A stretch of 64,000 nt of DNA from the human T2T-CHM13v2.0 reference genome, Homo sapiens. A program made the position numbers and the translations under genes. The stretch lies in assembly GCF_009914755.1 (NCBI RefSeq), contig NC_060936.1; one strand, given 5' to 3'. Shown here piece after piece: positions 2,790 through 57,477 of this stretch. The notes beneath the pieces are model-generated. The model did not search any database. It saw only the letters and a list, made by a program, of their open reading frames with translations, and was not told where the DNA came from. How positions within the stretch are numbered: position 1 is the first letter of the stretch; every line of letters begins with the position of its first letter.

Positions 2790-3045
2790 GTTCAAGCACA
2801 CAGCATACTGTGGAGAGCTCAGCGTTCATCTAAAGCCAGAGTGCTGTAGTTTCAGTCCTGGTTCTGCTACTTTACAGCTCTATGGCCTGAGCAAGCTACT
2901 TAATGTCTCTATTTGTTTTTCCCTAAGTTGCAATGTGGGATAATAATGTCTACGTCACAGGGTTGTTCTGAGGGAACGAGTCAATGCATGTTAATTGTAT
3001 TGCAGTACTGCGCATGTGGTAAGCTCTCAGTGGATGCTATTATCA
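2790..3045 (+). mobile_element. MIR SINE
   Basis: MIR core-like text (gagcaagctacttaatgtctct...tgggataataatgtctacgtcacagggttgttctgagg). Confidence 0.7.
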
Positions 3046-3053
3046 GAAGTCTC

Positions 3054-3202
3054 CCTCCTTTTAGTAAGTTAAACTACAGAATGAAAGGCCTTGACTGGCA
3101 AAATAGCACTGTGAGATACAAACCCATGTTTTCTGTGTGAAATCTGTTATTCTGTTACCATGCTCCATTGCCTGTCTTTAAGTTTTTGAGAAAATGTAAG
3201 TT
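3054..3202 (+). repeat. Copy 1 of a ~150-bp dispersed direct duplication (partner at 55802-55950)
   Basis: Ungapped hand alignment gives 22 mismatches in 149 bp. Confidence 0.9.
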
Positions 3203-4715: not shown

Positions 4716-4934
<219 letters not shown>

Positions 4935-44211: not shown

Positions 44212-45393
<1,182 letters not shown>

Positions 45394-55142: not shown

Positions 55143-55361
55143 CAGGCTAAGTATCCCTTATCTGAAAATCTGAAATCTGAAATACTTCAAAATCTGAAAC
55201 TTTTTGAATGCTAACATAATGCTCCAAGGGAGTAATTCAGATCTTGGATTTTTGGATTAGGAATGCTCAACCAATGTAATGCGAATATTCCAAAATCTGA
55301 AAAACCCTAAATTCAAAATACTCCTGGTCTCAAGCATTTTGGATAAGTGATACTTAACCTG
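55143..55361. mobile_element. Tigger4a/MER46-type MITE
   Basis: TA|caggctaagtatcccttatc ... gataagtgatacttaacctg|TA: terminal inverted repeats plus TA duplication. Confidence 0.88.
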
Positions 55362-55494
55362 TATTACATTTCCTTAAACGAAAAAAAAAAAAAAAAAACC
55401 AAAATACACAATTTATGTTAAAACAACCTGTAATTCACGTTTCCCTAATTCCCTAATTTTTATTTCATGGTAAGGTTTTAAGGTAAATTCATAC

Positions 55495-55796
55495 TTTTTT
55501 TTTTTTTTTTGAGACGGAGTCTCGCTCTGTCGCTCAGGTTGGAGTGCAGTGACACGATCTTGGCTCACTGCAATCTCCGCCCCCTGGGTTCAAGCAATTC
55601 TCCTGTCTCACTCAGCCTCCCTAATTGCAGGGATTACAGGCGCGCCCTACCATGCCCAGCTAATTTTTGTATTCTTAGTGGAGATGGGGTTTTGCCATGT
55701 TGGCCAGGCTGGTCTCGAACTCCCAACCTCAGGTGATCTGCCGGCCTCAGGCTCCCAAAGTGTTGGGATTACAGGCGTGAGCCACCGCGCCCAGCT
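55495..55796 (-). mobile_element. AluS (Sx-like) joined at its 5' end to the duplicated 150-bp segment
   Basis: Full dimer with poly-T at 55495-55510; no TSD immediately at its 5' end. Confidence 0.92.
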
Positions 55797-55801
55797 GGCT
55801 T

Positions 55802-55950
55802 CCTCCTTTTAATAAGTTAAACTACAGAAAGAAAGGCCTTGACTGGCAAAATAGCACTGTGGGATATATACCCGTGTCTTCTGGGTACGATCTGTTATTC
55901 TGCTACTGTGGCACAGTGCCTGTTTTTAGGTTTTTAAGAAAATATAAGTT
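55802..55950 (+). repeat. Copy 2 of the ~150-bp dispersed direct duplication (partner at 3054-3202)
   Basis: Ungapped alignment, ~85% identity; the first 59 bp have only 2 mismatches. Confidence 0.9.
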
Positions 55951-57477
55951 CATAATATACATTCACACTTTATAAGCTTCATGAATGCCAGATATACCAA
56001 ATCCTCCCAGTAGCAGTATATATATCAGATGCAAAAAAAATCCTATTTGTCCTGAGGTACTTTGGCAGCTTTAGAAATATTTTATTAACTTAATTCATAA
56101 TTTATAAGTTGCTTTCTTCAAAATATGATGGGAAATGGCTTACTGGCCATATTGCATTTCAAGCTGCAATGATAGAATTAGTAAGAAGTGGCATACGGAA
56201 GCCTCCCCAGCTCAGACCTGCTCCCTTACCCTGTCACCTTTATCACCTTGGCTTTCAGCACTTGCTCTAGCCCGGAAAGAGAGAACTACAGACATACCAG
56301 TGCTTAGATAAAGGCCGAAATCCGGCTACAGCTCTACTTACTGTATAACTTGACTCCCTAGTGTCTGGCACTTATCCCAAGCTTAAAAATAGATTTTAGT
56401 TACTTTCATCCATTTTATCAAGCAAATGGATATAAATCCTGCTAAATGCAAAAAGTTAATGACCTTCTCCTTGCATGTAACTAGAAGATGGTAGGTGATG
56501 AATCCTATCCACATTAGGACCAATGTCAAATATGCTGCTATTGTCCCTTAACGTTCAGGGAAGCAGCTGGAACCAGGGAGGTTTGATGAGTTTCCCAATT
56601 ATACTGAATCCTCGGGGTATTTTTCCCTCCTTTGGGAAAAGGAAAAAAGAAATAGACTACCATGAATGTTTCAGAACTTCAAAGAAGTTCTCATTTGAGT
56701 TGGTTTCTAAATACATGAAAGGGCAGAGTCACATATGAGAATTTTAACTCTCTCTGTGGCTTTATTCTATCTTCCCTGCCAATTATAAAATAAGTAAATG
56801 ACGAGGACTTCTGGTTGCAAATAAGCATAGGGAACACACAGCCTCTGCTGAGGCAAAGGCTCTCTCCAGACCTGGAGCCTTTGCTCTTGCTTCCTCCTCC
56901 TGTCTGGAAGGTTCAGTCCACTCTGCCTCTCTTCTGGCAAAGCCCTACTCATCCTGTGGGATCCAGCTCAAATGTCACCTCCTCTATGAAATGTCACTCC
57001 TTTCTCTGCTTTCCCTCCCATTAGAATTAATCACTCCCTGTAAACTGGCATAATCTTTCAGGAAGGCAAGTGGCAATATGTGTCAAAACTTTTAAAATAT
57101 TCACTTCTAGTAACTTTTATTGGGAAACAATGTGAAATGAAGACACAGACTAACATGCAAAAATAGTGACTACATCTTTTGTAATAGCAGAAAATAAGAA
57201 ACCATTAACATCCAGCAATGGGGGAAGACTGGTTGATGGTTGTCACATACCCACATGTTGAGGTATCCACGGGAGAGGCAGAGCTGACACTTTATTAGCC
57301 ATACAGTTCCCTCATTAGTCAAATGGGAATTACTGTGTAAGATGAGCAGTTACATGTCAGGCACACAGTAGTTACTCAACACAAGGTAGCAACTACCATC
57401 ACCTTTAACAATGTTAACTGAAATTTATAAAATATTAATGTTATAAAAATTCATATGTCATTTAAAAAATGGAATAA

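What the first reader, a model, noticed from the sequence alone, without database searches (positions are those of the whole stretch)
55484..55971. Chimeric Alu insertion that appears to have captured 150 bp of PKP2's own intron 11
Seen: 55802-55950 aligns without gaps to 3054-3202 (22 mismatches in 149 bp) in the same orientation, 52.7 kb away. It abuts the 5' end of a minus-strand AluS (55495-55796). That Alu has no TSD at its own 5' end. Instead the sequence next to its poly-T (taaattcatacttt, 55484-55497) recurs just beyond the duplicated segment (tacattcacacttt, 55958-55971, 12/14 match), followed by 'at', giving an L1-endonuclease-like CTTT/AT nick site. Established: L1 ORF2p can switch RNA templates during target-primed reverse transcription (U6-L1 type chimeras). 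Inference: one event copied the Alu RNA and then jumped onto the nascent PKP2 pre-mRNA or local DNA; both parts are PKP2-sense. About 15% pairwise divergence is compatible with AluS age.
Basis: partly seen in the sequence, partly recalled or inferred. Interest (0 to 1): 0.85.

Follow-up and report, generated by a model that had tools for sequence, protein, structure and literature searches.

The report
Alu fused to PKP2 intron copy
A full-length Alu in one PKP2 intron carries at its head a 152-base copy of another PKP2 intron, most likely because the copying enzyme jumped from the Alu RNA onto the gene's own RNA during a single insertion; it is a curious example of a known process, not yet confirmed against other primates.

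Summary
Bases 55799-55950 match 3051-3202 without gaps (129 of 152; E 1e-44). The match starts 2-3 bases from position 1 of a full-length minus-strand Alu.

The segment is not a repeat family. The whole genome holds exactly two copies. The same search sees families at 75-83% identity but not MIR-age ones.

A 14-base direct repeat (12 of 14) brackets poly-T + Alu + segment. It reaches this quality by chance at P about 0.0035. The only repeat candidate at the Alu's own 5' end is weak (9 of 11, P 0.05-0.26).

Alu divergence (9.9%) fits half of the pair's 15%.

Best reading (about 0.5): one L1-driven insertion in which reverse transcription reached the Alu RNA's 5' end and continued on PKP2-sense intron RNA.

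Rivals are a DNA-templated patch in the same event, two unrelated events, or a lost fusion source.

The decisive test, primate orthologues, could not be run here. This is a variant of known chimeric retrocopies and of moderate interest.

The parts
55484..55497 (.). Left copy of the candidate target-site duplication (TAAATTCATACTTT). It directly precedes the poly-T, and its last three T are part of the T run.
   Evidence: It matches 12 of 14 with 55958-55971. Strict decoy null P(score >= 8) = 49 of 14178 = 0.0035.
55498..55510 (-). Poly(A) tail of the Alu, read as T on the + strand. The whole T run is 55495-55510, 16 T.
   Evidence: read directly.
55511..55796 (-). Full-length dimeric Alu body, PKP2-sense, of AluS-like age.
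   Evidence: SRP model hits on the minus strand at 55509-55660 and 55679-55795; aligns from position 1-2 to other Alus; 9.9% from the consensus of 26 window Alus, non-CpG 20 of 240.
55797..55798 (.). Two G at the junction between Alu position 1 and the copied segment. They may be untemplated, or the first may already be templated (G at 3049).
55799..55950 (-). Copy 2: the 152-base duplicate of 3051-3202. Under the best explanation it is the 5' part of the chimera, in RNA sense.
   Evidence: 129 of 152, no gaps, E 1.4e-44; only two copies in the genome.
55951..55957 (.). Seven unexplained bases (CATAATA) between the end of the homology and the right repeat copy. 55945-55958 is itself an 11 of 14 look-alike of the left repeat.
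55958..55971 (.). Right copy of the candidate target-site duplication (TACATTCACACTTT), followed by AT. The implied nick site is CTTT/AT.
3051..3202 (-). Copy 1: the presumed source segment. It lies in the PKP2 intron downstream (in gene sense) of exon 4727-4880 and is unique sequence.
   Evidence: No Rfam family. No unusual RNA fold, z -1.0.
2800..3046 (+). Old dispersed repeat, MIR-like by my recognition from memory. Its 3' end lies 5 bases from the left edge of copy 1. It shows that no Alu adjoins the source segment.
   Evidence: two 35-base hits at 94% elsewhere in the genome. The family name is recalled and not tested.

Best explanation
One L1 ORF2p-mediated target-primed reverse transcription event made the whole stretch 55498-55957.

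1. The + strand was nicked at ...CATACTTT/AT.
2. The T-rich 3' end primed on the poly(A) of an Alu RNA.
3. The Alu RNA was copied to its very 5' end.
4. After two extra G, the reverse transcriptase carried on along a second template. That template was a PKP2-sense intron RNA (nascent pre-mRNA or an excised intron fragment) from 52.7 kb downstream in the same gene. It copied 152 nt, corresponding to 3051 up to 3202.
5. The cDNA end was then joined to the other side of the staggered break. This left a duplication of about 14 bases on both sides of the composite.

Shown: the duplicate, its uniqueness, its exact abutment to Alu position 1, the orientation, the bracketing repeat and the compatible ages.

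Inferred: that there was one event, that the second template was RNA and not DNA, and that copy 1 is the source.
For: (1) Homology is sharp-edged, ungapped, 152 bases long and begins 2-3 bases from Alu position 1.

(2) The genome holds exactly two copies with either copy as query (2 of 2 candidates each). The 31-base core with up to 3 mismatches occurs at 2 sites, against 0 for the reversed control. The same search returns 1683 candidates at 75-83% identity for a real dispersed repeat 100 bases away.

(3) The bracketing repeat is 12 of 14. Strict decoy null: 49 of 14178 (0.0035) do as well. Loose null: 96 of 2600 (3.7%).

(4) The Alu's own-end candidate scores only 5. This is reached by 5.3% of strict decoys and 26% of loose decoys. 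In contrast, 18 of the 25 other full-length Alus in the window have an abutting repeat scoring 9 or more.

(5) The copy is in the orientation that a PKP2-sense RNA template requires: the + strand is the cDNA strand for both the Alu and the segment (and the hub table).

(6) Ages agree. The Alu is 9.9% from the window consensus (non-CpG 8.3%, an upper bound), against a pair divergence of 15.1%, or 7.6% per copy.

(7) No Alu adjoins copy 1, so a simple 5' transduction from the present source locus is excluded.

(8) The mechanism is established for other template pairs (PMC2104539 Background passages; PMC13174262 abstract and section 12).
Against: No orthologous genome could be examined, so co-arrival of Alu and segment is not shown.

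The repeat has 2 mismatches in AT-rich DNA. A second 12 of 14 match lies at 56090, and an 11 of 14 match overlaps the segment end at 55945. The 56090 site resembles the right repeat plus its flank (15 of 19 by my count), so it is not an independent match.

Seven bases (55951-55957) between segment and repeat are unexplained. I set the 8-base tolerance of the null after seeing that gap.

The rival repeat at the Alu's own end sits at a perfect TTTT/AA site. Its left copy shares a T with copy 2 where copy 1 has C (55801 vs 3053).

The implied nick site CTTT/AT departs from the TTTT/AA consensus.

The 5' part is an internal intron fragment, not a full-length stable RNA. It has no Rfam match and fold z of -1.0 and -1.5, unlike classic chimeras.

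Nothing marks the template as RNA. T-to-C changes, which A-to-I editing would give on this strand, are 3 of 23 mismatches, my count on the list.

The left edge of copy 1 lies 5 bases from the end of an old repeat, a coincidence I cannot explain.
Confidence: 0.5

Rival explanations
1. Same single event, but the extra 152 bases were copied from DNA, not RNA. The free 3' end of the Alu cDNA invaded nearby chromosomal DNA of the same gene by microhomology. It was extended by a DNA polymerase (a replicative template switch, or a repair 'patch') and then captured at the target.
For: It has the same anatomy as the best explanation: abutment to Alu position 1 and the bracketing repeat. The donor lies in cis only 52.7 kb away. 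CAG and G are shared at the junction (55792-55794 and 55797 vs 3044-3046 and 3049). Mismatches are uneven: 3 in the first 62 bases (P 0.0026, post hoc), and 6 within 10 bases that create the inverted repeat ACTGTG-G-CACAGT in copy 2. That pattern would fit error-prone, switch-prone synthesis.
Against: A DNA donor predicts either orientation equally, and the observed one is the orientation an abundant sense RNA requires. The mismatch cluster could equally be a later template-switch mutation in either copy. Its clustering statistic is weak (P 0.06). Template jumping by the L1 enzyme onto RNA is described in print (PMC2104539 passages), whereas I found no paper describing this DNA route for Alu.
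Confidence: 0.15
2. Two unrelated events. A 152-base templated insertion (a double-strand-break patch of the class 2 kind, or another small duplication) created copy 2. An ordinary Alu then inserted, before or after, at the TTTT/AA site at its left edge with its own 11-base duplication (TTCATACTTTT / TTCCTCCTTTT).
For: A 9 of 11 repeat lies 3 bases from the Alu 5' end at a perfect TTTT/AA site. Its left copy shares T with copy 2 at the position where copy 1 has C. Intronic fragments are known donors of templated insertions without Alu involvement (PMC5110952 abstract and passages). Four of the 25 other full-length Alus in the window also score 5 or less, so poor repeats occur in true insertions.
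Against: That repeat scores no better than 5.3% (strict) to 26% (loose) of decoys. The edge of an unrelated duplication would have to coincide within about 3 bases with the start of the Alu's duplication. From 42 Alu hits in 64 kb I estimate roughly 1% for this. The 12 of 14 repeat just beyond the segment would also have to be chance (P 0.0035). Three bases (GGC) between Alu and repeat would need a separate explanation.
Confidence: 0.12
3. The fusion existed as RNA before reverse transcription. Either it was a 5' transduction from a source Alu that lay just downstream of a (now lost) third copy of the segment, or an intron fragment was ligated to the Alu RNA. It was then retrotransposed as one template.
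For: It has the same anatomy as the best explanation. Alu insertions carrying 20 nt of upstream sequence have been recovered in culture (PMC11260458, passage on clone JVM-21). RNA ligation before retrotransposition is proposed for U6/L1 (PMC6789731, search listing and abstract start only).
Against: Copy 1 is followed, in RNA sense, by a non-Alu old repeat. The genome holds no third copy. Two G that come from neither partner sit at the junction.
Confidence: 0.08
4. The two segments are members of an old, undescribed interspersed repeat, and their position next to SINE ends is accidental.
For: The genome search is blind to MIR-age families: a full-length MIR-like query found only itself and two 35-base pieces. 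The left edges of both copies lie at SINE ends.
Against: Two members of an old family would not be 85% alike and gap-free over their whole shared length while every other member stays below the 75% that the search can see. A profile of the two copies run unfiltered over the window finds nothing better than E 0.04, and one of the top hits is L1-like by my recognition of the printed alignment. Even within such a family this pair would still need a recent copying event.
Confidence: 0.03

Closest known systems
Bipartite chimeric retrogenes / U6-L1 chimeric pseudogenes (template switch or RNA fusion during L1-mediated reverse transcription)
   Same: Two unrelated transcripts are joined head to tail in the same orientation. 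There is a poly(A) at the 3' end, an L1-endonuclease-like site, and short direct repeats around the composite only (features as listed in PMC2104539, Background passages).
   Different: Here the 3' part is a complete Alu, not a 5'-truncated LINE, so the switch came at the very end of the first template. The 5' part is an internal 152-nt piece of an intron, not a full-length small RNA. The donor is the gene that hosts the insertion. I recall that Buzdin et al. 2003 (PMC169886) listed Alu among the 3' parts, but that paper is not held.
Alu/LINE-1 chimeric insertions catalogued by multi-species alignment (Law and Burns 2026, PMC13174262)
   Same: A full-length Alu, mostly sense-oriented, arrives together with another retro-copied sequence, bounded by one duplication. 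It dates from the period of Alu expansion in early primates (section 12: 452 cases, 33% AluS).
   Different: In that catalogue the Alu is the upstream partner and L1 is the primed 3' partner. Here the Alu is the primed partner and the upstream partner is unique intronic sequence. The word PKP2 does not occur in that paper's main text. Its supplementary tables were not opened.
Templated sequence insertions, class 1 and class 2 (Onozawa and Aplan 2016, PMC5110952)
   Same: Short pieces of intronic or intergenic sequence are copied to a distant site, by L1 ORF2p (class 1: duplication, poly(A), TTTT/A) or as a break-repair patch (class 2: microhomology, extra bases).
   Different: Class 1 needs the fragment's own poly(A); here the poly(A) belongs to the Alu. 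Class 2 has no flanking duplication; here a candidate duplication brackets the composite.
5' transduction by a retroelement
   Same: Unique sequence is attached upstream of a full-length element inside one duplication.
   Different: The sequence next to the source segment is not an Alu, so the present genome offers no source element.

Membership tests
Bipartite chimeric retrogene (criteria of PMC2104539, Background) | The 5' part is a full-length copy of a cellular RNA | tested here: not met
   The 5' part is a 152-nt internal piece of a PKP2 intron. No Rfam family reaches E below 3. The fold is not unusual: z -1.0 and -1.5 on the sense strand. An unknown stable intron RNA with these ends cannot be excluded.
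Bipartite chimeric retrogene (criteria of PMC2104539, Background) | The 3' part is a 5'-truncated copy, mostly of a LINE | tested here: not met
   The 3' part is an Alu complete to position 1-2.
Bipartite chimeric retrogene (criteria of PMC2104539, Background) | Both parts are joined directly in the same transcriptional orientation | tested here: met
   Two bases lie between Alu position 1 (55796) and the start of homology (55799). Both parts are minus-strand and PKP2-sense if the template was PKP2 RNA.
Bipartite chimeric retrogene (criteria of PMC2104539, Background) | The composite is flanked by short direct repeats | tested here: met
   12 of 14 at 55484-55497 and 55958-55971. Strict null 0.0035, loose null 0.037. 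Caveats: 2 mismatches, a 7-base gap to the segment, and AT-rich sequence.
L1-mediated (TPRT) insertion in general | Poly(A) tail and an endonuclease-like nick site | tested here: met
   There is a run of 16 T on the + strand. The implied site CTTT/AT is one step from TTTT/A, the consensus quoted in PMC5110952.
Ordinary solitary Alu insertion | Target-site duplication abutting the Alu's own 5' end | tested here: inconclusive
   The best candidate is 9 of 11 with a 3-base gap, score 5. This is reached by 5.3% to 26% of decoys. 18 of the 25 other Alus score 9 or more, and 4 of 25 score 5 or less.
Interspersed repeat family | Many dispersed copies | tested here: not met
   There are two copies genome-wide. 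Positive control: 1683 candidates. The search is blind below about 75% identity. Dfam is not available.
5' transduction | The source locus has the element directly downstream of the transduced sequence | tested here: not met
   Copy 1 is followed, in RNA sense, by 5 bases and then a non-Alu old repeat at 2800-3046.
Class 2 templated sequence insertion (break-repair patch) | No flanking duplication; microhomology or untemplated bases at junctions | tested here: inconclusive
   Extra bases are present at both junctions (GG and CATAATA). A bracketing duplication is also present if the Alu is counted in.
Single co-arrival of both parts (needed for any chimera claim) | Same presence/absence pattern of Alu and segment across primates | not testable with these tools
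   No primate or other mammalian genome is held. The genome tool states that the window's genome has no relatives here.

The most novel reading that the evidence does not exclude
The second template was the nascent PKP2 pre-mRNA (or its freshly excised intron) still at the transcribed locus where the Alu was being integrated. That would be a fossil record that L1-driven reverse transcription at a transcribed gene can pick up the host gene's own intronic RNA by end-to-end template jumping. Local nascent RNA would then be a preferred acceptor, and Alu insertions could shuffle intronic sequence within a gene.
Probability: 0.3. Interest if true: 0.55.

Novelty: new variant of a known kind. Interest (0 to 1): 0.35.

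Why it matters
If confirmed, it adds a case in which Alu, not L1, is the primed partner of a chimeric insertion, and in which the captured partner is unspliced intronic RNA from the very gene being hit.

That bears on two questions. One is where and when target-primed reverse transcription meets cellular RNA. The other is whether proximity to nascent transcripts biases template choice.

A systematic search would turn one anecdote into a testable rule. It would look for full-length Alus whose flanking duplication lies beyond a short unique segment that has a cis paralogue.

For PKP2 itself (a cardiomyopathy gene, from my own knowledge) the insertion is deep-intronic. No functional effect is indicated by anything seen here.

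Tried and rejected
Small structured RNA as the 5' part (snoRNA-like, which would explain the sharp ends). Rejected: Rfam gives nothing below E 3 on either copy, and fold z-scores are -1.0, -1.5 and +0.3.

Homology continuing on the far side of the Alu (the Alu simply interrupting a longer duplicate). Rejected: local alignments of both outer flanks are at shuffle level.

A third copy or an old family.
- Genome BLAST with both copies found none.
- An exact-core pattern search found none.
I ran it unfiltered on the window only and found no third copy.

Defining the empty site from paralogues of the flanks. It led nowhere. The left flank is a dispersed repeat only up to about 55377, and the right flank is unique.

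RNA-editing signature as a mark of an RNA template. There is no excess: 3 T-to-C of 23 mismatches, my count on the list.

MIR-driven copying in the opposite direction (copy 2 as source). Rejected on my own reasoning: the extra sequence lies at the MIR-like element's 3' side, and 15% divergence is too young for that family.

Buzdin et al. 2003 is not held.
Full report
**What is in the sequence**

Bases 55802-55950 against 3054-3202 give 22 mismatches in 149 ungapped positions. BLAST extends it by three bases to 55799-55950 vs 3051-3202: 152 bases, 23 mismatches, no gaps, 84.9%, E 1.4e-44, same strand. Every other hit of that 600-base query lies in the Alu part.

The homology ends sharply on both sides.
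- The 250 bases left of the Alu against the 300 bases left of copy 1 score 19. Shuffles average 21.0 (sd 3.0).
- The 300 bases right of each copy score 28. Shuffles average 26.6 (sd 4.6).

The element to the left of copy 2 is a complete dimeric Alu on the minus strand.
- Both monomers match the 7SL/SRP model at 55509-55660 and 55679-55795.
- It aligns to 25 other near-full-length Alus of the window from its position 1-2 (26 of 42 hits are near full length, itself included).
- On the + strand the order is: T run of 16 (55495-55510), Alu body (55511-55796), GG (55797-55798), the 152-base copy, then CATAATA (55951-55957).

**Is the 152-mer a repeat family?**

No, within what the tools can see.
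- Each copy used as query against the whole 3.1-Gb genome raises 2 first-look candidates, and both are the PKP2 sites.
- The 31-base identical core, with up to 3 mismatches allowed, occurs at 2 sites. The reversed control occurs at 0.

Two controls bound the sensitivity.
- The stretch 55200-55377, a dispersed retro-element ending in poly(A), raises 1683 candidates. The 40 that were scored are 75-83% identical. Families of that age are therefore seen.
- A full-length MIR-like element (2800-3046; the name is from memory) finds only itself and two 35-base pieces. Families near 70% identity are therefore missed.

Run unfiltered on the window, it finds nothing better than E 0.04. One of the top hits is, by my recognition of the printed alignment, L1 sequence.

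Two copies that are 85% alike without a single gap, with no third copy above 75%, mean one copying event of moderate age, whatever the sequence's deeper origin.

**Is it a small RNA gene?**

No evidence supports this. Rfam gives nothing below E 3 on either copy. Sense-strand folds are ordinary, with z of -1.0 and -1.5.

**Target-site duplications**

I scored flanking repeats the same way for all 26 full-length Alus: +1 per match, -2 per mismatch, with the upstream copy within a few bases of the 5' end.
- Among the other 25 Alus, 18 have an abutting repeat scoring 9 or more. Four score 5 or less.
- This Alu's abutting candidate is 9 of 11, scores 5, lies 3 bases off, and includes four bases of the A/T run.
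- The repeat that brackets Alu plus segment is 12 of 14 and scores 8.

Null distributions:

| Null | Procedure | Score >= 8 | Score >= 5 |
|---|---|---|---|
| Loose | Any start in 80 bases downstream; 100 decoy boundaries for each of 26 Alus | 96 of 2600 (3.7%) | 682 of 2600 (26%) |
| Strict | Downstream copy anchored at this Alu's poly(A) end; decoy boundaries every 9 bases on both strands of the window | 49 of 14178 (0.35%, true sites included) | 748 of 14178 (5.3%) |

The bracketing repeat is therefore about 15 times harder to get by chance than the abutting one. It is of normal quality for an Alu of this age. The abutting one is of the quality seen in the poorest sixth.

Caveats:
- I fixed the 8-base tolerance after seeing the 7-base gap.
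- The 14-mer is AT-rich. 14-mers ending in TTT find a 12 of 14 partner somewhere in a 500-base span in 161 of 4000 trials.
- The span here holds a second 12 of 14 match at 56090 and an 11 of 14 match at 55945. The 56090 site resembles the right repeat together with its downstream flank (15 of 19 by my count). It is a local look-alike of that site and not an independent match.
- In favour of the abutting candidate: it sits at a perfect TTTT/AA site, and its left copy shares a T with copy 2 where copy 1 has C.

**Ages**

Against the majority consensus of the 26 window Alus, this Alu differs at 20 of 240 non-CpG positions (8.3%) and 7 of 34 CpG positions, 9.9% overall. It ranks 18th of 26 by non-CpG divergence. 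The figure is an upper bound, because subfamily differences from a mixed consensus are counted.

The pair differs by 15.1%, or 7.6% per copy if both have drifted since one event. Of the 23 differences, 16 are transitions and 3 lie in CpG context. The two numbers agree, as one event requires. The test is weak.

**Mechanism**

On the + strand the poly-T and the reverse-complemented Alu are the first-strand cDNA. A template for 55799-55950 must therefore be minus-sense, which is PKP2-sense (hub table). Copy 1 lies in the PKP2 intron next after exon 4727-4880.

The simplest account is an end-of-template jump by L1 ORF2p from the Alu RNA onto PKP2 intron RNA. It added two bases at the jump, and the cDNA end then joined at the far side of a 14-base staggered break.

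Weighing two unrelated events against this:
- The abutting repeat would have to be real although poor (about 0.16 by the window's Alus).
- The bracketing repeat would have to be chance (0.0035).
- The edge of an unrelated duplicate would have to fall within about 3 bases of the start of the Alu's duplication (about 1% from the Alu density in the window, my estimate).

Under one event, only the abutting look-alike has to be chance (about 0.05). This favours a linked origin by orders of magnitude.

The data cannot separate three forms of a linked origin: an RNA template, a cis DNA template, and a pre-formed fusion RNA. The sense orientation favours RNA modestly. No editing signature or splice junction marks the copy as RNA-derived. 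No Alu adjoins copy 1 and no third copy exists. This argues against a plain 5' transduction.

**Comparison with what is known**

PMC2104539 (Background passages) lists the features of bipartite chimeric retrogenes:
- a full-length cellular RNA as the 5' part;
- a 5'-truncated, mostly LINE, 3' part;
- direct same-sense junction;
- flanking direct repeats.

This locus meets the last two and fails the first two. The 3' part is a complete Alu and the 5' part is an internal intron fragment.

PMC13174262 (abstract; sections 12, 18, 23; passages) catalogues 452 Alu/L1 chimeras, always with L1 as the primed partner. It reads mRNA-L1 chimeras mostly as splicing products. PKP2 is not mentioned in its main text, and I did not open its supplements.

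PMC5110952 (abstract and passages) shows that intronic fragments are copied to distant sites both by ORF2p and as break-repair patches.

PMC11260458 (passages) reports a cultured-cell Alu insertion with 20 nt of upstream sequence, and others with one or two untemplated 5' bases.

I recall that Buzdin et al. 2003 listed Alu among 3' parts of chimeras. That paper is not held.

My three literature searches turned up no paper describing an Alu joined to its host gene's own intron. They are far from exhaustive.

**Verdict**

It remains unproven until primate orthologues are compared. It is a variant of a described process and not a new kind of element. Interest is moderate.

Noticed in passing
window 55905-55917 vs 3157-3169: Six of the 23 differences between the copies fall within 10 bases (55907, 55908, 55911, 55912, 55913, 55916). 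They turn ACCATGCTCCATT (copy 1) into ACTGTG-G-CACAGT (copy 2), a perfect 6-base inverted repeat. This looks like one short template-switch mutation and not six substitutions. The clustering is only marginal (P 0.06).
   Followed up: partly
window 3051-3112 / 55799-55860: The first 62 bases of the duplicate carry only 3 of the 23 mismatches, including a 31-base identical run. Positions 63-117 carry 16. The permutation P is 0.0026, chosen post hoc. The cause is unknown: uneven mutation, error-prone copying or constraint.
   Followed up: partly
window 2800-3046 (+): A full-length old SINE (MIR-like, recognised from memory) ends 5 bases before the left edge of copy 1. So the left edges of both copies lie at SINE ends. 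I have no explanation for the coincidence at copy 1.
   Followed up: partly
window 55200-55399 (+): A dispersed retro-element 3' end followed by a poly(A) of about 19 bases (55381-55399). It has 1683 first-look candidates genome-wide, and the 40 scored are 75-83% identical. The family was not named. It served as the positive control for the genome search.
   Followed up: no
window 56090-56111 vs 55958-55979: A local look-alike of the right duplication copy plus its downstream flank (ATTCAYAMTTTATAAG core, 15 of 19). It explains the second 12 of 14 match to the left duplication copy.
   Followed up: partly
window 44684-44953 and 44987-45265 (-): Two adjacent minus-strand Alus share the flanking motif AAGTAGGAATTGCTG-like on three sides. 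This suggests one Alu inserted at or next to the other's target duplication. The hub table places an alternative PKP2 exon (45168-45299) inside the second Alu.
   Followed up: no
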